DNA of 64,000 nt. Source: a virus. Below the pieces are notes generated by a model that worked only from the letters and a program-made list of their open reading frames with translations, did no database searches and was not told where the DNA came from. Made by a program: the position numbers and the translations under genes. This document shows, in pieces, positions 1-52,021 of the stretch (positions are counted from its first letter, which is position 1; every line of letters begins with the position of its first letter). The DNA lies in the IMG/VR virus record IMGVR_UViG_3300044846_005100, positions 32,001 to 96,000 of that record. One strand, 5' to 3'.

Positions 1-130
1 AGTGATGGAGTACCCGTCTCGCTCCAATCTTAACTGCTTTCCCGATTTTTACGGTGCACCGGCAGAGGGTCATGACTATCCTTAGCCTACTTAGCTTGTC
101 GACAGCATAGGTAGAGGCGTCCACTATCTT
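1..130 (-). ncRNA. Unnamed structured RNA candidate, probably truncated by the window edge
   Basis: GC-rich non-coding sequence with several hairpins, starting right after the tRNA-Tyr 3' end. Confidence 0.4.
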
Positions 131-134
131 TTGT

Positions 135-214
135 TGGAAGGGACGGATTCGAACCGCCGTACTCTGAGAGAACAGATTTACAGTCTGCCGGTTTTAGCCA
201 CTCACCCACCTTCC
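135..214 (-). tRNA. tRNA-Tyr(GTA)
   Basis: Cloverleaf GGAAGG..CCTTCC, anticodon loop CTGTAAA, long variable arm, GGTTCGAATCC T-arm. Confidence 0.95.
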
Positions 215-220
215 AATAAA

Positions 221-357
221 TAAGCTGAAGAAAGTTAGAAAGGCATATTTATGTTGCATAAAACGGGGATCGAACCCGTGACCTTTTAAACCCAATTTAA
301 ACGCTCAACCAACTGAGCTATTCACGCGAAGTAACCTTTTCTATTACTATCAGCTTA
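221..357 (-). ncRNA. Y-RNA-like scaffold Y1 with a nested complete tRNA-like module (TGG loop)
   Basis: Terminal stem TAAGCTGA/TCAGCTTA; TAGTAA-N9-TTACTTC motif; internal cloverleaf GCGTGAA..TTTATGC. Confidence 0.8.
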
Positions 358-362
358 ATAAG

Positions 363-506
363 TTAAGACGAGAAAACGAATAGAGTTTTGCTGTTATAAG
401 GCAATTTATGAGATTGCTGTCTTTACCACTTGACTAATTCTCCATGCGGGGAATATAGGATTCGAACCTATGTTTACGAAGTACCTCTAATCTTGCTACG
501 TCTTAA
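363..506 (-). ncRNA. Y-RNA-like scaffold Y2 with a circularly permuted tRNA (T-arm, closed acceptor, D-arm, CAT anticodon arm)
   Basis: Stem TTAAGACG/CGTCTTAA; TAGCAA..TACTTC; ATAGGTTCGAATCCTAT precedes the D-arm TAGTCAAGTGGTAAAGAC. Confidence 0.8.
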
Positions 507-552
507 TAATTCAATGAACTTATTTGTTTTTTAAACCCAGTCGATTAGGTTT

Positions 553-760
553 AAAAAAGAGGCCGGCTTACATTCCATCTTCCGGCCTCTTAGGCTTGAT
601 CTTCATGCTAGCATCTGATCAAAGGTAGAGCTTCGCTTCCAAACTCTTCGCTCTCTAAAAAGGCAGCCGTCTCTTATGGGATCGCCAGCAGGATACCTTA
701 AGTCTTATAGTGAACTTAACAAAACTACTATTAGCTCATAGCTGAGGGAATATCTTCCAA
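553..760 (-). ncRNA. Unnamed structured RNA candidate ending in a terminator-like hairpin
   Basis: GC-rich non-coding sequence; AAGAGGCCGG/CCGGCCTCTT stem followed by a T run on the minus strand. Confidence 0.4.
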
Positions 761-764
761 ATGA

Positions 765-903
765 TAAAGGTAAAGAAAGTTTCCAACCGAGATTTTAGCG
801 CTCTATCCAGCTGAGCTAATGAGGATTACTCCCCATGTTGGATTCGAACCAACGACCTCTCGTTTAACAGACGAAGTAACGGTTTAGATTACTATTACCT
901 TTA
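765..903 (-). ncRNA. Y-RNA-like scaffold Y3 with a circularly permuted tRNA-Asn(GTT)-like module
   Basis: Stem TAAAGGTAA/TTACCTTTA; order is anticodon arm (CTGTTAA), T-arm, acceptor closed by GTAA, D-arm. Confidence 0.8.
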
Positions 904-909
904 ATAAGT

Positions 910-1074
910 TAAGATGAAGAATGTTGCAAATAGTGTTGTTTCTTAACGCGCGTCTACCAGTTCCGCCATTCCCCAATGAGTTGTTTGTAATATAGTCGGG
1001 GAAGAAGGATTCGAACCTTCAATGTACGTGCTCCAAATGCATACGAAGTAACTATTCAGCTTGCTATCATCTTA
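910..1074 (-). ncRNA. Y-RNA-like scaffold Y4 with a permuted tRNA module (T-arm, closed acceptor, Leu-type D-arm)
   Basis: Stem TAAGATGA/TCATCTTA; TAGCAA-N9-TTACTTC; GAAGGTTCGAATCCTTC precedes TGGCGGAACTGGTAGACGC. Confidence 0.8.
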
Positions 1075-1082
1075 TAATAAGT

Positions 1083-1213
1083 TTATCAGGAGAAAGTTGC
1101 AAAGGTGTAACGCTTTCGCGCTTCTGCGGGAATTGAACCCGCGGCCTATTTTGTTTAAGAAAATTGCTCAACCGCTGAGCTAAGAAGTAACCTTTTGCAT
1201 TACTACCCGATAA
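1083..1213 (-). ncRNA. Y-RNA-like scaffold Y5 with D, anticodon (TAA) and T arms fused through the acceptor position
   Basis: Stem TTATCGGG/CCTGATAA; CTTCT/AGAAG replaces the acceptor stem. Confidence 0.8.
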
Positions 1214-1242
1214 TTAATTTTTTCAAAGAACTTGTTTACTTT

Positions 1243-1253
1243 ATTATAATACT
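1243..1253 (-). promoter_or_regulatory. AGTATTATAAT promoter-like motif (also at 6574-6584 and 7087-7097)
   Basis: Identical intergenic 11-mer, three times, about 24-34 nt upstream of an RNA or ORF start. Confidence 0.55.
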
Positions 1254-1294
1254 AAGAATCCCTTTACGTTTAAAATTATTCTTAATATTTTTTG

Positions 1295-1368
1295 TAGTCA
1301 AGACAGGAGTCGAACCTGCAATCTCCCCAACATTCTGTCGGGGCGCGTTACCAATTAGCCACCTGACT
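1295..1368 (-). ncRNA. Atypical tRNA-like RNA (AGTCAGG acceptor family) with an extended anticodon arm
   Basis: AGTCAGG/CTTGACT acceptor, GCAGGTTCGACTCCTGT T-arm, 7-bp anticodon stem with 5-nt loop. Confidence 0.7.
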
Positions 1369-1373
1369 ATAAA

Positions 1374-1464
1374 AAGGATTGCTGGGGGAATACTGTCGAG
1401 AGTATGTTTGGTTTGCGTTTCAGATACAAGAAGTAACTCTGTAACTTGCCACCCAGCAATCTTT
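1374..1464 (-). ncRNA. Y-RNA-like scaffold Y6, minimal, with no tRNA module
   Basis: Stem GATTGCTGGG/CCCAGCAATC; TGGCAA-N9-TTACTTC; begins about 10 nt after the Ro60 stop codon. Confidence 0.75.
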
Positions 1465-1473
1465 ATTTTTTAT

Positions 1474-3102
1474 TTAGATCTTGATCTTTCGAACTTTCTC
1501 TAAGTGATAGTTTGGATTGAATTCGCTTTTCGCGATATCATCGAACATTGAGTATCCGTATCCATAGTAGAAACGAACTTTATCTCCTGCAAGTTGAGTC
1601 GTTCCATAAGCTGCTAGATCCACCGAGTAAACGTATGGGCTTCCGCATGCTTTTGTGTATGACTCGTATGCTTTGTAGCTGCTTCCGCGGTTACACTCAT
1701 TGTCAGATAAGATAAACACTCGGTCATACTGACGTCCAGACATTTGAGCTACTGCCCATGCGGCTGAAAGATTGGTTCCTCCCATATCTCTCTTCATTGC
1801 GCTAGCAATAGAGAATACATCAGAGTTAGCGTTCCATTTTACGTATTCAGCACTTGAACCGAATCGAATAACGTCTCCATTTGTTGCCTTTGCAATGGTT
1901 GCTGCAATTAATGCTGCCTTGTCCATGCATCGGCTAGTGTAACGTTTTCCGCTTCTTGCGCCATCAGTCATTGGAGTACCCATTGATCCAGAGAAATCCA
2001 CCATTACTAGAGTCTTACCAGGAAGCATCTCTGAAAGGTTTGGCACTGCTGCTTCATATCCTTTAAGTAATGCTTGTGCAATCGCTCTGGAGTTAGAATC
2101 AGAAAATTCTGAGATCGTTACCTCGTGAGCTAGGTCAATTTGGTATGGCATAATCTTTCCTTTTCGGATTGCGTCTGGACTAGATAGCAGAGCAGTCAAC
2201 TTAGTAACCGTGTCTCCTTTGTTAACTGTCTTCAATACATTTCTAATATTTCGAAGAGCAGCTAGGATTCCCAGTTTACCGTCAGTTAATAGAGCATCCC
2301 AGTTTTCAGCTTTCGCTTCTTTTAAGATTGTCTCGGCTTCGGACTTGTCGATTTTACCCTCTTTCACAGCTTTCGCAACCTCTTGACCTGCGTCAGATTG
2401 TGCTACTTCCCAAGTATCAGCTGAAACGCTTAAGCCTTTCATGATAGCGGAAAGAACTGGCACTTTTTCTCCATTTACTTCGGCTACTGCACTAGAAGCC
2501 TTTGGATTTGGGTGAACCAGGTTGATCACGTCAACTAGAGAGCTCTTGTATTTAAGTAGTGCATAAGCATCTAAGTTTTCAAGAGCATCCGCGAATCCTT
2601 TTTTCATCGCATTGGTTACCTTTGTTCCATTCAGTGCTGAGAAGCAAGCAACGATTTCTGCCATATCATCTGGACGGAATAGAGTTCCTCCGGATTGAGT
2701 ACGTTTGTTCCATAGGGAATAGAAACGTTTTGCCCATTCTTGACCCGCACAGTGTGGAGCTAGGTAGCTTGCTGCAAGGTGGTTAATTGATCTCATTCCT
2801 TCACCAACACATCTCGAATAAACGATTGATTGAGCTACGAAGTATGCATCTTCTTCTGCACACTCATCGACTAGTCCTTTCAACTCCCTCATCGTTTCTG
2901 TCTCAGAACGATAGAATTGATTTTCTAGCTTTAGTGTGTTTAACATCGTCAGGAGACGAAGCCACTTATCTTGTGAATAAGCTGCATGTCCTTGACGATT
3001 CTTAGTGTCTGGTTTTGGGATTTTCACCGCTTCTACCAGGTTCGCTTGAGGCTGCATTCCAGCTAGCGTCGAACGAAGCTTGTCGTTTCTAAACTTTGTC
3101 AT
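1474..3102 (-). CDS. rsr: Ro60/Rsr-like TROVE-domain RNA-binding protein with C-terminal vWA domain
   Basis: 542 aa; TROVE-like motifs (DTWE, ALRNIRN, MPY), vWA MIDAS DFSGSM, GGTN, LSDNE. Confidence 0.9.
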   Translation of the reverse strand: MTKFRNDKLRSTLAGMQPQANLVEAVKIPKPDTKNRQGHAAYSQDKWLRLLTMLNTLKLENQFYRSETETMRELKGLVDECAEEDAYFVAQSIVYSRCVGEGMRSINHLAASYLAPHCAGQEWAKRFYSLWNKRTQSGGTLFRPDDMAEIVACFSALNGTKVTNAMKKGFADALENLDAYALLKYKSSLVDVINLVHPNPKASSAVAEVNGEKVPVLSAIMKGLSVSADTWEVAQSDAGQEVAKAVKEGKIDKSEAETILKEAKAENWDALLTDGKLGILAALRNIRNVLKTVNKGDTVTKLTALLSSPDAIRKGKIMPYQIDLAHEVTISEFSDSNSRAIAQALLKGYEAAVPNLSEMLPGKTLVMVDFSGSMGTPMTDGARSGKRYTSRCMDKAALIAATIAKATNGDVIRFGSSAEYVKWNANSDVFSIASAMKRDMGGTNLSAAWAVAQMSGRQYDRVFILSDNECNRGSSYKAYESYTKACGSPYVYSVDLAAYGTTQLAGDKVRFYYGYGYSMFDDIAKSEFNPNYHLEKVRKIKI

Positions 3103-4909: not shown

Positions 4910-5008
4910 TAGTCAGGAGGGGAATCGAACCCCTGTTGCCCTTAGTTGCTCTTACTTCTCAGTAAAGTGTGGGATCGAACCACACCTGGACCAAAGCTCC
5001 ACCTGACT
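4910..5008 (-). ncRNA. tRNA-like RNA (AGTCAGG family) with two T-arm-like hairpins
   Basis: AGTCAGG/CCTGACT; GTGTGG-TTCGATC-CCACAC and AGGGG-TTCGATT-CCCCT. Confidence 0.65.
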
Positions 5009-5104: not shown

Positions 5105-5219
5105 TAGTCAGGACAGGAATCGAACCTGTAAACCTACTTCCCATCTTCGGTTTTTTAACTCTAATGTTTAGAGTGGGTCAAACCACATTAGAGTACGTAT
5201 ACCATTCCGCCACCTGACT
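5105..5219 (-). ncRNA. tRNA-like RNA (AGTCAGG family) with a greatly expanded anticodon and variable domain
   Basis: Acceptor, D-arm TGGCGGAATGGTATACG, 10-bp ACTCTAATGT/ACATTAGAGT stem, T-arm. Confidence 0.7.
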
Positions 5220-5622: not shown

Positions 5623-5774
5623 TGGTTCTAGTAGGAATCGAACCCACCTTGTAAATTACATGCAATATGCCTTAACTTTTTACTCCGATCCTAGTATTAA
5701 GGAGTGTTAAACCAAATTGCCATCATCTACCCACTCGCGACTGCTGGGAGCTACCCACGTTATGCTATAGAACC
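5623..5774 (-). ncRNA. RNA with tRNA-like ends and an insert of about 110 nt
   Basis: GGTTCTA/TAGAACC acceptor, TAGC after the 5' strand, T-arm GTGGGTTCGATTCCTAC. Confidence 0.65.
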
Positions 5775-5989: not shown

Positions 5990-6183
5990 AAACAAGTCTT
6001 CCGTGCTCACCACGGGTTTGGATTTGACTGATGGTTTGTTCCCCATCACCTGTTGACGTGCACATCAGAGCAGGGTCCATTACAGGATACCTTGGGGCAT
6101 TCAAACTCTCAGTAAAGGTTGCGATCCTATGAGAGCCAAGGTTTCTTTCATCCGCGCTATTCGGACTTCTGTAAGACTTGTTT
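5990..6183 (-). ncRNA. Large (about 194 nt) multi-stem ncRNA candidate
   Basis: 11-bp closing stem AAACAAGTCTT/AAGACTTGTTT; internal CCTTGG/CCAAGG, CTCTCA/TGAGAG and TGATGG/CCATCA. Confidence 0.6.
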
Positions 6184-14854: not shown

Positions 14855-16363
14855 TTATTCTTGATTATCTTCTAAATTTGTTTCTCCTTTTTCTTGAGCA
14901 TCAGATTCTCCTAAAATAAATCTTTTAGATTTTAATTTATATGCTTCATAAGAATACATGTTTTCTTTTCTCAAGATTATTCCTTCTTCTGGAACTTTAT
15001 TATTACACATATAACAATCTTTTTCATTATATTTTATTTCTAAATCAGCTAACATAGGTTCTCTGAAATCTAAAAATCCTGTTAAATTATTTTTTTCTAA
15101 ATAATTCTGAACAGTACCGTAATAAATAAAAGTGTCTTTGTATAACAACCCTACTTTTTCACAATATTCTTCAATTTGTTTATCAGTTAAAAAGATTACT
15201 TTTCCATCAGGATTTACCACTGAAATTTTGTAAACATAAAATTTATGTTGTGGTTTTTTAACTGTTTCTAATTCTTTTAACAAATCTTGAGGAATTGTTT
15301 CAAAAATATCATCCAATCTACCAATAAAAAATTTAAACTTTTCTTCATCGTATAAATTATATTTTTTTAATAAATCTTCTTTTTGCTTTTTATTTAAAGC
15401 TTTCCAAGCTTCTTTATAGGATTTTTTATCATCGCTACCTAAAACAGTACAACCGTAATCATACGCTCCTTGTATTGGGGCCCCTGAAGCAGTGTAACCT
15501 AAAATTTCTCCATAAAGTGTCCAATTTTTAGGAATTAAATGTCCTATTTCTTTGGCCACAACTCCCCAAATATCTTCTCCATAAAATCCTCCTCCTTTTG
15601 TTGGATTCAAATATTGGTTTTTAATTACTTTTCTCGAAGAATAAACAATGTCATAATCTTCTTCCTTAATATTCACTCCTACTTTTTTCAATAATTTTTC
15701 ATACCATGATAAAGGAGTTTTTACTAATACATTTCCAACTACCATTGAAGTACCATGCTTCTTGTAGTGAATACCGATAATATCATCAGGATTGATTTTA
15801 TCCATATTTTTACGAAGATTATCAGTATCTCCATGTAAATAAAATTGGCCTTCAATTAATCTATCAATACCTTTTGGCTGTTTATGGGATTTAGTAGCAT
15901 TACTTCCTCTTTGTTGTACAGGTACAATATATTTTTCACAGAGAGTATTACCATTAATTTCTGTAAATTCATCTCCTATATTTAAAGAGTCAATAGATGA
16001 ACTTTCTAAAAAAGAGTTTAAACTACTTAAAGGCATCAACATTCCATCAGATATTTCTCCTCTGAGTTTGATTGCTTTTACACGTTTTTGTTTAAAACTG
16101 ATAAACCCTTTTTGGGCTGTATCTAAATTTTCTTCAGATTTATCATACAAATTATTTTTTTTACAATAATCTGCATTTAATTTAGTACCAGATACAAAAT
16201 AAAGCATTATATCTCCTTCTTTTACATTTTTGGAACATACTACTGTATTACCATTTACAATAGTTTTTACGATCATATCTGCTCCTTCTATTGGGAGAAT
16301 TTTTTTAACTTCAACTACACTACATGCATAGTTTTTGGAATTTTCATTTACTGATAATGTCAT
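14855..16363 (-). CDS. ATP-dependent RNA ligase (DRB0094/Rnl2-like) with N-terminal OB-type domain
   Basis: PIEGAD, KLRGEISDG, motif I KKHGTS, YGE, EEGIIL, YKLK. Confidence 0.85.
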   Translation of the reverse strand: MTLSVNENSKNYACSVVEVKKILPIEGADMIVKTIVNGNTVVCSKNVKEGDIMLYFVSGTKLNADYCKKNNLYDKSEENLDTAQKGFISFKQKRVKAIKLRGEISDGMLMPLSSLNSFLESSSIDSLNIGDEFTEINGNTLCEKYIVPVQQRGSNATKSHKQPKGIDRLIEGQFYLHGDTDNLRKNMDKINPDDIIGIHYKKHGTSMVVGNVLVKTPLSWYEKLLKKVGVNIKEEDYDIVYSSRKVIKNQYLNPTKGGGFYGEDIWGVVAKEIGHLIPKNWTLYGEILGYTASGAPIQGAYDYGCTVLGSDDKKSYKEAWKALNKKQKEDLLKKYNLYDEEKFKFFIGRLDDIFETIPQDLLKELETVKKPQHKFYVYKISVVNPDGKVIFLTDKQIEEYCEKVGLLYKDTFIYYGTVQNYLEKNNLTGFLDFREPMLADLEIKYNEKDCYMCNNKVPEEGIILRKENMYSYEAYKLKSKRFILGESDAQEKGETNLEDNQE

Positions 16364-31077: not shown

Positions 31078-31887
31078 TTATTTTACAGGAATACTCATTA
31101 TTGTAGAACCACCTGTTACTGCGGAAGGCATAACACCATTCCATCTATTAATAGCTTTTTCCTTTAGAATTTGATCTGTAAGACCCTTACTACGAATTAA
31201 ATTCTGTTCAGTTACCAATTGTTCTAATTCATTTAATTTCTTTTGTTCAACAATTTCTTGATCTATTACTGAAATATTGGTATTAACTTCATTTCTATTG
31301 TCAATTTTTTTCTTTACTTTATCAGAGAAATCTAATTGGCAACTAAAAGTCATCAACTTCAAGCCTTTTTTCTCAAATTCTTCTCCAATAACTTTTTGTA
31401 CATTTTCCTCAAATTTTAATGAACCTCCATTAGCCATTAATTCATCAGTAGTGTACTTTCTTGATTCTTCTTTCATAACATCATAGATTTTAGTTTCTAA
31501 GATATTGTTTTCTAAAGTTGTCATAAAGTCTTCACCTGCTCCTAAATGTTTATTTTCAAAAACTACATCAACAGCTCTTTTTTCAATAACCATAAATGAA
31601 TAAATAGGTTTAGAAGTAAACTCCGTGTTATCAGAAGCTTTTAAATGAAGAACTTTAGAATCATTGTCATCAAATGAAGCTCTTTGTTCAAATAATGGTA
31701 CTTGAAATAATTCTGTACCTGGAGACCAAGTACTTACTCTTCCTTTTACAAGAGAGAAATCACTTTTTCCATCTTTACCATAATTTTCCATTAATACTCC
31801 TACATAATTAGGTGCAACTCTTTCACAAGAAGTGAATGTCAACGCTATTGTTAAAGCAAATAGCAAGCTCATAAATGTTTTTTTCAT
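31078..31887 (-). CDS. SPFH/band-7 family lipoprotein
   Basis: Lipobox FTSC, coiled coil, RWNGVMP C-terminus. Confidence 0.85.
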   Translation of the reverse strand: MKKTFMSLLFALTIALTFTSCERVAPNYVGVLMENYGKDGKSDFSLVKGRVSTWSPGTELFQVPLFEQRASFDDNDSKVLHLKASDNTEFTSKPIYSFMVIEKRAVDVVFENKHLGAGEDFMTTLENNILETKIYDVMKEESRKYTTDELMANGGSLKFEENVQKVIGEEFEKKGLKLMTFSCQLDFSDKVKKKIDNRNEVNTNISVIDQEIVEQKKLNELEQLVTEQNLIRSKGLTDQILKEKAINRWNGVMPSAVTGGSTIMSIPVK

Positions 31888-51941: not shown

Positions 51942-52021
51942 ATTTTTTATTTTTACTACTTGCACCCCGAAAGGTGCAACGCTTTTGGCTTAAAGTCTAT
52001 TTATAGTTGCCAAAACAACTT

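What the first reader, a model, noticed from the sequence alone, without database searches (positions are those of the whole stretch)
363..1074. Circularly permuted tRNAs with different breakpoints that retain anticodon arms
Seen: Y2 reads T-arm, acceptor closed by GCAT, D-arm, then a CTCATAA anticodon arm, so it opens in the variable loop. Y3 reads CTGTTAA anticodon arm, T-arm, acceptor closed by GTAA, D-arm, so it opens between the D and anticodon arms; its TCCTCAT..ATGGGGAG ends are Asn-like. Y4 has the Y3 order with a 21-nt acceptor loop, a weak TTG-loop hairpin and a Leu-type D-arm. Known: permuted tRNA genes are described in some algae and an archaeon, and YrlA opens in the anticodon. 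Inference: either these are non-chargeable mimics that display intact anticodon loops, or they are precursors matured by cutting and ligation. No canonical tRNA-Asn is visible in this window.
Basis: partly seen in the sequence, partly recalled or inferred. Interest (0 to 1): 0.88.

Follow-up and report, generated by a model that had tools for sequence, protein, structure and literature searches.

The report
Phage Y RNAs with rearranged tRNAs
Three small RNA genes beside a phage Ro60 gene are tRNA look-alikes written in rotated order on a shared docking stem; they belong to the known tRNA-mimicking Y RNAs (YrlA type), but they keep a full anticodon arm and are opened at different points, which the published descriptions I could read do not cover.

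Summary
Relatives support the helices by compensatory changes (96.9%, 96.8% and 99% of cells paired).

They are not a new class. They are three of six units directly downstream of a Ro60/Rsr gene (1474-3102, minus). All six share one handle: outer stem, UAGYAAK, second stem, GUUACUUC. Y3 gives a sub-threshold match to Rfam YrlA.

The Y3/Y4 order is YrlA with its published 'V stem-loop', which here is a 5-bp, 7-nt anticodon arm. I did not find the Y2 order (anticodon arm after the D arm, handle at the variable-loop position) in the papers I could read. It recurs in at least 40 viral contigs.

Across 50 modules, loop position 33 is U in 48, position 37 is a purine in 49, and the 15:48 pair is G:C or A:U in 48. 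The triplet is conserved in the Asn family but varies in the Y2 family.

A canonical tRNA-Asn lies about 160 nt outside the window, so maturation into a missing tRNA is unlikely.

Earlier notes of this scan report the same kind of RNA on other DNA.

Verdict: new variant of a known kind; function untested.

The parts
1474..3102 (-). Ro60/Rsr gene (542 aa), directly upstream of the six-unit RNA array on the same strand
   Evidence: Pfam TROVE 3e-7 and Ro60 vWA 2e-5. Matches PDB 9KOP/9L5Y, the Thermus phage phiLo Ro60, at E 1e-12 over residues 31-516.
911..1073 (-). Y4 unit as a whole: handle, weak anticodon-like hairpin, T arm, closed acceptor, Leu-type D arm, handle 3' strand
   Evidence: Absent from the nearest relatives L003-L005.
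1044..1073 (-). Y4 handle 5' strand: outer stem, UAGCAAG, second stem, GUUACUUC
   Evidence: Aligns with the other five handles.
1024..1044 (-). Y4 interrupted hairpin with 7-nt loop AUUUGGA. Relatives have UUUAGGA, a Leu UAG-type loop.
   Evidence: The inner pairs are invariant, so covariation says nothing for or against it. It is not in the minimum-energy fold.
1004..1020 (-). Y4 T arm
969..1003 (-). Y4 7-bp acceptor stem closed by a 21-nt loop
   Evidence: 6 of 7 pairs covary.
950..966 (-). Y4 D arm of tRNA-Leu type (3-bp stem)
766..902 (-). Y3 unit as a whole: handle, Asn-type anticodon arm, AGGUC, T arm, closed acceptor, D arm, handle 3' strand
859..875 (-). Y3 anticodon-like arm, 5 bp plus loop CUGUUAA. 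Its 5' strand overlaps the conserved UUC of the handle.
   Evidence: The loop is identical in 11 of 12 family members. The loop-closing pair is G-C 7, A-U 3, U-A 2.
837..853 (-). Y3 T arm, preceded by the class-I variable loop AGGUC (854-858)
819..836 (-). Y3 7-bp acceptor stem closed by GUAA
   Evidence: 7 of 7 pairs covary. Loop length in relatives is 4-25 nt.
800..816 (-). Y3 D arm
   Evidence: Matches the Rfam YrlA core. Invariant in the family.
553..591 (-). Intrinsic-terminator-like hairpin (10-bp G+C-rich stem, then a run of U) between Y3 and Y2. The rest of 592-765 has no ORF and no significant fold.
363..506 (-). Y2 unit as a whole: handle, T arm, closed acceptor, D arm, anticodon arm, handle 3' strand
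477..504 (-). Y2 handle 5' strand: outer stem, UAGCAAG, second stem, GGUACUUCG
455..471 (-). Y2 T arm
   Evidence: 4 of 5 pairs covary.
437..454 (-). Y2 7-bp acceptor stem closed by GCAU
   Evidence: 6 of 7 pairs covary. Relatives have GCCA, GCAA or GCC at the start of this loop.
419..434 (-). Y2 D arm (3-bp stem)
   Evidence: The 15:48 pair covaries with the base before the T stem.
401..417 (-). Y2 anticodon arm, 5 bp plus loop CUCAUAA, in the normal tRNA position after the D arm
   Evidence: All 5 pairs covary. The loop is always 7 nt with the pattern C-U-NNN-A-A, and the triplet varies.
222..362 (-). Y1, context: the same handle enclosing an unpermuted cloverleaf that ARAGORN calls tRNA-Pro(UGG)
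1085..1212 (-). Y5, context: the same handle with an unpermuted tRNA-like body whose acceptor 5' strand is the handle's CUUC
1370..1462 (-). Y6, context: the handle without a tRNA module

Best explanation
Y2, Y3 and Y4 are YrlA-type Y RNA genes of a phage Ro60 (Rsr) particle, three of an array of six.

Inferred mechanism: each RNA folds into a long handle made of its two ends (outer stem, a UAGYAAK internal loop equivalent to the GNCGAA(N)G Ro60 motif, a second stem, then GUUACUUC, which contains the family's YUAY). The phage Rsr ring binds this handle. At the far end sits an L-shaped tRNA body whose acceptor end is sealed by a loop.

The bodies arose from tandem tRNA genes. The first copy gave the T arm and the acceptor 3' strand, and the second copy gave the acceptor 5' strand and the D arm. 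Truncation at different points left different layouts:
- In Y3 and Y4 the first copy's anticodon arm and variable loop were kept, so the handle leaves the body between positions 26 and 27.
- In Y2 the second copy's anticodon arm was kept, so the handle takes the place of a variable arm.

They do not decode. They present a tRNA elbow and an anticodon-shaped loop to some tRNA-binding factor while tethered to Rsr.

Shown: the anatomy, its conservation, the linkage to rsr and the kinship with YrlA.
Inferred: Rsr binding, the L-shape, the tandem-gene origin and the non-decoding role.
Unknown: the partner and the biological effect.
For: Linkage to rsr:
- The units lie 12-1100 nt downstream of a TROVE+vWA gene on the same strand.
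- Homologous units lie beside rsr in 35 related viral contigs.
- The Y3 module is 80% identical to unannotated DNA next to the TROVE genes of Xylella/Xanthomonas phages and of Caulobacter phage CcrColossus, where similar arrays stand.

Shared handle: six 5' strands align as outer stem, U(A/G)G(U/C)AA(G/U), second stem, G(U)UACUUC.

Kinship with YrlA:
- Rfam RF02553 matches the Y3 core at 33 bits.
- It matches units of the Usme, CcrColossus and Gordonia phage arrays at 30-50 bits, E 1e-8 to 8e-3.
- The motif order GNCGAA, YUAY, (V hairpin), T, closed acceptor, D is that of Chen et al. 2014 (PMC4201824).

Structure: helices covary. In 32 + 18 distinct modules, the tertiary 15:48 pair is G:C or A:U in 31/32 and 17/18, U33 is present in 31/32 and 17/18, and position 37 is a purine in 31/32 and 18/18.

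Tandem-gene origin:
- D arm type and loop triplet agree within a module: Glu, Leu, Asn and Lys types.
- N-CCA sits exactly at positions 73-76 in 5/25 and 7/21 distinct acceptor loops, against about 1.6% at other loop offsets. This fits the dimeric-tRNA model quoted in 10.1101/312249.

Not decoders:
- The genome has canonical Asn, Met (two), Gln and Leu(UAG) genes.
- Y3 is not a copy of the resident tRNA-Asn.
- The Y2-family triplet changes to A34 forms, which bacteria very rarely use for decoding outside ACG (my own knowledge), while the body stays the same.
- Acceptor sequences vary freely.
Against: - No binding or expression data exist for this uncultured phage.
- All Rfam YrlA scores are below the gathering score of 69.
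- The handle motif differs in letters from the published GNCGAA(N)G.
- Single-sequence folds are no more stable than shuffles.
- Acceptor stems of exactly 7 bp and conserved G-CCA in many Y2-type relatives suggest that the sealed acceptor may be opened in vivo. That would make 'closed mimic' incomplete.
- The loop CUGUUAA is almost invariant in the Asn family, which points to selection on the triplet itself and is not explained by a pure elbow mimic.
- Which helix stacks under the D stem in Y3/Y4, the hairpin or the handle, cannot be decided from sequence.
Confidence: 0.75

Rival explanations
1. Same RNAs, but the sealed acceptor is opened after transcription. RNase P cuts at the 5' end of the acceptor 5' strand, and the other piece is trimmed and given CCA, as shown for M. 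smegmatis YrlA. The result is a two-piece RNA held together by the handle that has every tRNA feature including an anticodon arm, and might even be aminoacylated. This refines the best explanation rather than excluding it.
For: - Acceptor stems are 7 bp in 28/32 and 17/18 modules. Chen et al. name this length as the reason only M. smegmatis YrlA is an RNase P substrate.
- N-CCA is enriched at positions 73-76 of the loops.
- G-CCA persists in Y2-type relatives whose acceptor stems have diverged.
- The Y2 loop GCAU begins with G-C.
Against: - Many loops are GNRA or UUCG-type tetraloops (GUAA in Y3, GAAA and UUCG in relatives), which suggest a stable cap rather than a processing site.
- CCA has decayed to CUA or CAA in many Y3/Y4-type loops.
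- No CCA-adding enzyme is encoded by the phage, although the host would supply one.
- No experimental data exist.
Confidence: 0.3
2. The anticodon-shaped loops are the working part. The array displays several anticodon loops on Ro60 handles as decoys, sensors or baits for host enzymes that read or cut tRNA anticodon loops, such as anticodon nucleases or modification enzymes.
For: - U33, R37 and A38 are kept while stems and, in the Y2 family, the triplet change.
- CUGUUAA is kept across phages of very different hosts.
- Related arrays show Asn, Ile, Gly, Glu, Gln, Phe, Lys, Ser, Asp, Leu and Met-type loops.
- The phage encodes a putative RNA ligase: PHA02142 OB-fold 36 bits, RNA_ligase 23.5 bits, under the cut-off. 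Phage RNA ligases are known from tRNA repair after anticodon-nuclease attack (my own knowledge of T4 Rnl1/PrrC).
Against: - The evidence is purely circumstantial, and no nuclease or partner is identified.
- The Y4 hairpin is weak, and some units in the same arrays have no such hairpin (Y6 here, Usme unit at L001 3481-3576).
- Loop-shape conservation could simply be inherited from a recent tRNA origin.
Confidence: 0.2
3. They are true permuted tRNA genes. The handle is cut away, the 26/27 junction (Y3, Y4) or the variable-loop junction (Y2) is ligated into a circle, and the acceptor loop is opened to give working tRNAs, as in Cyanidioschyzon merolae and Thermofilum pendens.
For: - The arm order is that of permuted tRNA genes.
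- 7-bp acceptors and relic CCA are present.
- A putative RNA ligase is encoded 12 kb away.
- Wang et al. raised this possibility for YrlA.
Against: - Canonical genes for the same anticodons are present.
- The junction is flanked by a conserved Ro60-type handle shared with units that have no tRNA body, not by a bulge-helix-bulge motif.
- No RtcB is encoded.
- Splicing endonucleases are not known in bacteria (statement in 10.1101/312249).
- A34 triplets (AAU, AAA) and other swaps occur on one body.
- Acceptor identity is not conserved.
Confidence: 0.04
4. They are inert debris of recombination among the phage's tandem tRNA genes.
For: - They lie in a large tRNA cluster.
- Array content differs between phages whose Rsr is 99% identical.
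- Y4 has few relatives and a degenerate hairpin.
Against: - Compensatory changes maintain all helices over long divergence, with Rsr identity down to 37% and hosts from Xanthomonas to Caulobacter.
- The handle is conserved.
- The tertiary 15:48 pair covaries.
Confidence: 0.03

Closest known systems
YrlA Y RNAs of bacteria and phages (Rfam RF02553; Chen et al. 2014, PMC4201824; structure of S. Typhimurium YrlA, Wang et al. 2018, 10.1101/312249)
   Same: Encoded beside rsr on the same strand. A handle with a Ro60 motif and YUAY. T arm, loop-closed acceptor and D arm in that order. The tertiary 15:48 pair covaries. Many members carry a hairpin just before the T arm (the 'V stem-loop'). Already described as resembling circularly permuted tRNAs.
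   Different: - Here the pre-T hairpin is a full 5-bp/7-nt anticodon arm followed by a normal AGGUC variable loop. The papers call it a variable arm and state that YrlA lacks the anticodon loop.
- Y2 has the anticodon arm after the D arm, an order I did not find in those papers.
- Six units with four layouts stand in one array.
- Scores are below Rfam's threshold, and the handle letters differ (UAGYAAK, GUUACUUC).
M. smegmatis YrlA (Chen et al. 2014)
   Same: A 7-bp acceptor stem. That RNA is cut by RNase P in the acceptor loop and gains CCA, and both halves stay with Rsr.
   Different: Processing is untested here. The M. smegmatis RNA is not described with an anticodon arm.
D. radiodurans Yrn1
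   Same: A Y RNA with a T arm and a possible 5-bp 'anticodon arm'. Its arm order is unpermuted, like Y1 and Y5 of this array.
   Different: Yrn1 has a 6-nt loop, no full D arm and a metazoan-type Ro60 helix. Y2-Y4 are permuted.
Circularly permuted tRNA genes of Cyanidioschyzon merolae and Thermofilum pendens (cited in 10.1101/312249; otherwise my own knowledge)
   Same: The 3' half is encoded before the 5' half, and the acceptor is initially a closed hairpin. Breakpoints differ between genes.
   Different: Those are matured through a bulge-helix-bulge cut, ligation and RNase P/Z, and they supply tRNAs that are otherwise missing. Here the flanks are a Ro60 handle and canonical genes exist.
Thermus phage phiLo Ro60 with Yrl1/Yrl2 (PMC12135203)
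   Same: The nearest solved relative of the protein. Phage Ro60 with Y-like RNAs encoded next to it, with a CGAA-type internal loop between two stems.
   Different: The text I searched describes Yrl1/Yrl2 as a stem-bulge-stem with a CGAA motif and uses the word tRNA only twice; I saw no tRNA-like module described.

Membership tests
YrlA-type Y RNA (RF02553) | Encoded within a few kb of a Ro60/Rsr (TROVE) gene on the same strand | tested here: met
   rsr is at 1474-3102(-) and the units lie at 363-1073(-). The same linkage holds in 35 viral contigs and in the Usme and CcrColossus phages.
YrlA-type Y RNA (RF02553) | T arm, then loop-closed acceptor-like stem, then D arm, with tRNA tertiary pairs possible | tested here: met
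   The 15:48 pair is G:C or A:U in 48 of 50 modules.
YrlA-type Y RNA (RF02553) | 5' motif GNCGAA(N)G and conserved YUAY before the tRNA-like domain | tested here: inconclusive
   YUAY is present as UUAC within GUUACUUC in 5 of 6 units. The Ro60 motif appears as UAGYAAK here and as GGYG(U/A)AG in Usme and CcrColossus, at the right spacing but not letter for letter.
YrlA-type Y RNA (RF02553) | Score at or above Rfam's gathering threshold (69 bits) | tested here: not met
   33 bits for Y3 and 15 bits for Y4. Phage units that Chen et al. would count, such as those of CcrColossus and a Gordonia phage, also score only 30-50 bits.
YrlA-type Y RNA (RF02553) | Bound by Rsr in vivo | not testable with these tools
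   Needs immunoprecipitation or reconstitution.
Circularly permuted tRNA genes (matured to working tRNAs) | 3' half encoded upstream of the 5' half, joined through a closed acceptor | tested here: met
Circularly permuted tRNA genes (matured to working tRNAs) | Leader and trailer form a bulge-helix-bulge motif at the junction to be ligated | tested here: not met
   By inspection, the junction is flanked by 4 nt on one side and 9-15 A-rich nt on the other, then by the conserved handle. No splicing endonuclease family was searched for.
Circularly permuted tRNA genes (matured to working tRNAs) | The permuted gene supplies an isoacceptor not otherwise encoded | tested here: not met
   Canonical Asn(GUU), Met(CAU) twice, Gln(UUG) and Leu(UAG) are in the same 140-kb genome.
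Circularly permuted tRNA genes (matured to working tRNAs) | Anticodon and identity elements conserved among orthologues | tested here: inconclusive
   The loop is conserved in the Asn family, 11 of 12. The triplet is variable in the Y2 family, CAU in only 7 of 18. Acceptor sequences are not conserved in either.
Circularly permuted tRNA genes (matured to working tRNAs) | Mature, ligated, CCA-ended tRNA detectable | not testable with these tools
   Needs tRNA sequencing.

The most novel reading that the evidence does not exclude
The phage Ro60 array is a rack that displays complete tRNA bodies of several identities, anticodon loops included. After RNase P cutting and CCA addition these become two-piece, possibly chargeable tRNAs tethered to Ro60. 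They would serve as baits or decoys for host enzymes that attack or read tRNA anticodon loops. The different breakpoints in one array would also be living intermediates showing how Y RNAs are born, repeatedly, from tandem tRNA genes.
Probability: 0.15. Interest if true: 0.85.

Novelty: new variant of a known kind. Interest (0 to 1): 0.55.

Why it matters
What the tRNA-like end of bacterial Y RNAs binds is an open question, and the published model says it lacks an anticodon loop.

These phage units, and about a third of the 37 bacterial YrlA-like modules I parsed, keep an anticodon-shaped hairpin with U33 and a purine at 37. This widens the list of candidate partners to factors that read the anticodon arm.

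One array holds four layouts: an unpermuted body, a body opened at 26/27, a body opened at the variable loop, and no body at all. Relic CCA sits in the acceptor loops. Together these give concrete sequence support to the idea that Y RNAs arise from tandem tRNA genes.

Practically, such units are missed by tRNA finders and by Rfam thresholds, so phage genomes are under-annotated here.

Tried and rejected
- Thermodynamic support: z-scores of single folds are not significant. I rely on covariation instead.
- Spacer 592-765 between Y3 and Y2: no ORF of 35 aa or more (the longest are 34 aa) and no significant fold, only a terminator-like hairpin.
- Alignment A3 of all hairpin-plus-T-arm pieces: MAFFT shifted the hairpin columns between groups with 4-, 5- and 6-nt variable loops, so I did not count pairs on it. 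I used a position-exact tally in Python instead.
- TROVE search in five contigs that carry the second Y2-type scaffold: nothing found, but the contigs are only 3-14% complete, so this says nothing.
- Papers not held: the Annual Review 2020 and Microbiology Spectrum 2018 reviews by Sim and Wolin, and the supplements of Chen et al. 2014. I therefore cannot exclude that an anticodon-like reading of the V stem-loop, or the CcrColossus array, is described there.
- Y3 as a recent copy of the resident tRNA-Asn: rejected. Only the D arm and loop are shared, and all stems differ.
- Searches for RtcB, T4 Rnl1 and a CCA-adding enzyme in the genome: none found. The Rnl1 search rang in no control genome, so it is uninformative.
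Full report
**What is there**

The window starts inside a large minus-strand tRNA cluster of an uncultured 140-kb phage with 32% G+C. ARAGORN finds 16 tRNAs between 133 and 6540.

In the middle of the cluster, ORF 1474-3102(-) encodes a 542-aa Ro60/Rsr protein:
- Pfam TROVE 3e-7 and Ro60 vWA 2e-5;
- its nearest solved relative is the Ro60 of Thermus phage phiLo, E 1e-12 over almost the full length.

Six units follow directly downstream on the same strand.

| Unit | Coordinates |
|---|---|
| Y6 | 1370-1462 |
| Y5 | 1085-1212 |
| Y4 | 911-1073 |
| Y3 | 766-902 |
| Y2 | 363-506 |
| Y1 | 222-362 |

In each unit the two ends pair into a long stem. The six 5' strands align as outer stem, U(A/G)G(U/C)AA(G/U), second stem, G(U)UACUUC. 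GTTACTTC occurs five times in 328-1437 and once elsewhere in 64 kb.

**The observation**

Reading the minus strand, the arms run as follows.
- Y2: T arm (455-471), 7-bp acceptor closed by GCAU (437-454), D arm (419-434), then a 5-bp hairpin with loop CUCAUAA (401-417).
- Y3: hairpin with loop CUGUUAA (859-875), AGGUC, T arm (837-853), 7-bp acceptor closed by GUAA (819-836), D arm (800-816).
- Y4: the Y3 order, with an interrupted hairpin (loop AUUUGGA, 1024-1044), a 21-nt acceptor loop (969-1003) and a Leu-type D arm (950-966).

Single-sequence folding is no better than shuffled sequence, so I tested the arms by comparison.

**Relatives**

The Rsr protein retrieved 35 viral contigs at 99% to 37% identity. 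Y1, Y2, Y3 and Y5 have homologues in many of them. Y4 has few. The nearest relatives, with Rsr 99% identical, lack Y4, Y2 and Y1. Units are therefore gained and lost as cassettes.

The Y3 module is also 80% identical to unannotated DNA in two other phage groups:
- Xylella/Xanthomonas phages (Usme group), next to a protein that matches the window's Rsr in tblastn;
- Caulobacter phages CcrColossus and CcrPW, next to an annotated TROVE gene.

Both places hold arrays of units with GGUGG(U/C)G(U/A)AG ... GGUUACUUC ... UUGUUCCCC handles.

**Covariation**

| Family | Sequences | Cells paired | Main result |
|---|---|---|---|
| Y2 | 18 | 96.9% | 17 of 20 pairs changed on both sides; all 5 pairs of the anticodon-like stem covary; 0/500 shuffles reach the score; slid controls 24-46% paired |
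| Y3 | 12 | 96.8% | all 7 acceptor pairs covary; the hairpin's loop-closing pair is G-C, A-U or U-A; three pairs are fixed because they belong to the conserved UUCG |
| Y4 | 6 | 99% | 6 of 7 acceptor pairs covary; nothing for or against its hairpin |

A position-exact tally covered 32 distinct modules of the Y3/Y4 order and 18 of the Y2 order.

| Feature | Y3/Y4 order | Y2 order |
|---|---|---|
| Loop position 33 is U | 31/32 | 17/18 |
| Position 37 is a purine | 31/32 | 18/18 |
| 15:48 pair is G:C or A:U | 31/32 | 17/18 |
| Acceptor stem is 7 bp | 28/32 | 17/18 |

The hairpins were selected for 5 bp and a 7-nt loop. They were not selected for these letters.

**What the refutation test says**

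- In the Asn family the loop CUGUUAA is identical in 11 of 12 members from very different phages. One member has CUGAUAA.
- In the Y2 family the shape C-U-NNN-A-A is kept, but the triplet is CAU in only 7 of 18. The others are AAU, AAA, UAU, GCA, UGU, UGA, GAA, UGA-shifted and AAC.

Related arrays carry modules whose loop and D arm agree in type: Glu, Asp, Leu, Gly, Lys, Phe, Ser, Gln and Ile. The Y4 relatives have the Leu-type loop UUUAGGA where Y4 has AUUUGGA.

**What it is**

These are Y RNAs of the YrlA kind. Chen et al. 2014 describe RNAs beside rsr with the following parts in order:
- a GNCGAA(N)G motif;
- a conserved YUAY;
- often a 'V' stem-loop;
- a T arm;
- a loop-closed acceptor-like stem;
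- a D arm.

They found them in 22 phages. According to PMC12135203, these include CcrColossus.

Rfam YrlA matches the Y3 core at 33 bits. It matches units of the Usme, CcrColossus and Gordonia phage arrays at 30-50 bits. All are under the gathering score of 69, yet with E-values down to 1e-8.

Wang et al. 2018 already say that most YrlAs 'resemble circularly permuted tRNAs'. They also say that YrlA 'lacks the anticodon loop', and they quote the model that YrlA arose from dimeric tRNA transcripts.

**How new is the Y3/Y4 order?**

I scanned bacterial genomes for a YrlA-type T arm followed within 10-40 nt by the D arm. Of 124 matches, 43 are not inside canonical tRNAs. Most of these carry GCGAAUGC ... 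CUAC handles.

I parsed 37 of them. About a third have a short hairpin with a 7-nt loop of the form YU-NNN-AA, then a 5-nt variable-loop-like stretch before the T arm. Examples of such loops are CUCUUAA, UUGCUAA, AUGUUAA and CUCAUAA.

The hairpin at the Y3 position is therefore the published V stem-loop. In these phages it is simply a well-preserved anticodon arm. The point of opening, between 26 and 27, is a matter of reading, not a new architecture.

**The Y2 order**

The Y2 order is different. The anticodon arm follows the D arm as in a real tRNA, and the handle enters where a long variable arm would sit. I did not find this layout in the papers I could read.

A pattern scan of viral contigs gave 100 stretches, which sort as follows:
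- 43 distinct modules lie outside canonical tRNAs;
- 15 of these have an rsr homologue on the same strand within 150-1800 nt;
- another group carries the same module on a second handle (GGGAAAACGAAAAG ... UUUACAG ... UAUUCCC) with a clear CGAA motif.

**Origin and possible processing**

The acceptor loops often begin with N-CCA. It sits exactly at positions 73-76 in 5 of 25 distinct loops of the Y3/Y4 order and in 7 of 21 of the Y2 order from the viral scan. At other loop offsets the frequency is about 1.6%. Many more loops have one-letter decays (UCUA, ACAA).

This is what a tandem pair of tRNA genes would leave behind, with its spacer turned into the loop. It fits the dimeric-tRNA model.

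It also keeps open that RNase P and the CCA enzyme open the loop, as shown for M. smegmatis YrlA. Chen et al. hold the 7-bp stem of that RNA responsible. The loop of Y2 is GCAU. The loop of Y3 is the tetraloop GUAA, which looks more like a cap.

**Against maturation into working tRNAs**

- The genome has a canonical tRNA-Asn(GUU) at 31769-31842, about 160 nt outside the window. It also has two Met, Gln(UUG) and Leu(UAG) genes.
- Y3 shares only the D arm and loop with that tRNA-Asn.
- The junctions are flanked by the conserved handle, which is also used by a unit without any tRNA body (Y6), and not by a bulge-helix-bulge motif.
- No RtcB is encoded.
- A putative RNA ligase is encoded at 14855-16363(-): PHA02142 OB-fold 36 bits, RNA_ligase 23.5 bits, under the cut-off. 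Ligation capacity as such therefore cannot be excluded.

**Verdict**

'Non-chargeable' remains open.

The units are members of a known kind (YrlA-type Y RNAs next to Ro60) with features the literature I could read does not describe:
- full anticodon arms with conserved loop shape;
- a second breakpoint (Y2);
- several layouts in one array.

Earlier notes of this scan report the same features in other phages and bacteria. I checked their main claims here independently:
- the hairpin is common in the family;
- the loop shape is kept while the triplet swaps;
- permutation occurs at the variable arm, with built-in CCA.

The function is untested. The most likely mechanism is a Ro60-bound tRNA mimic.

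Noticed in passing
window 356-364, 902-910, 1075-1083 (minus strand): A short linker AACUUAUUA stands just before the outer stem of Y1, Y3 and Y4 (8 copies in the window against 3.0 expected). It may be a processing site or the joint along which units are gained and lost.
   Followed up: partly
L003:5140-6010 (and L004, L005) versus window 125-1462: Phages whose Rsr is 99% identical have only Y6, Y5 and Y3. Y4, Y2 and Y1 are missing and Y5 abuts Y3. Array content therefore changes faster than the protein.
   Followed up: partly
window 51954-52020 (minus): Rfam Pistol self-cleaving ribozyme, 65 bits against a gathering score of 34.5.
   Followed up: no
window 6023-6084 (minus): Rfam freshwater-1 RNA, 86 bits against a gathering score of 72, inside the tRNA cluster.
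   Followed up: no
window 4924-4931, 4974-4981, 5119-5126, 5637-5644 (minus): Four further GGTTCGAT T-loop motifs upstream of rsr lie outside any ARAGORN tRNA.
   Followed up: no
window 1294-1368 (minus): The 'tRNA-Phe(GAA)' between Y6 and Y5 scores only 39.5 bits. Its anticodon region is irregular: 11 nt where the model has 9. A normal tRNA-Phe exists at genome 30771-30846.
   Followed up: no
window 14855-16363 (minus): A 502-aa protein with a PHA02142 OB-fold domain (36 bits) and a sub-threshold RNA_ligase domain (23.5 bits). It is a putative phage RNA ligase.
   Followed up: partly
L202:4450-4700, L196:590-800, L184, L205, L246: A second Y-type handle (GGGAAAACGAAAAG ... UUUACAG ... UAUUCCC) carries the Y2-type module, often with an encoded GCCA after the acceptor 3' strand. 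No TROVE gene was found on these contigs, but they are only 3-14% complete.
   Followed up: partly
L040:4055-4198 (Bacteroides phage crAss001, downstream of its Ro60-like gene): A tRNA match of 46.6 bits has 82 nt where the anticodon region should be. This is either a tRNA with a large insert or another tRNA-like partner RNA.
   Followed up: no
L138 (bacterial genome contig), two modules: A bacterial contig carries two units with the same GGUGGUGAAG ... GUUACUUCG handle as the phage arrays, one with a CUGCAAC hairpin. It may be a prophage.
   Followed up: no
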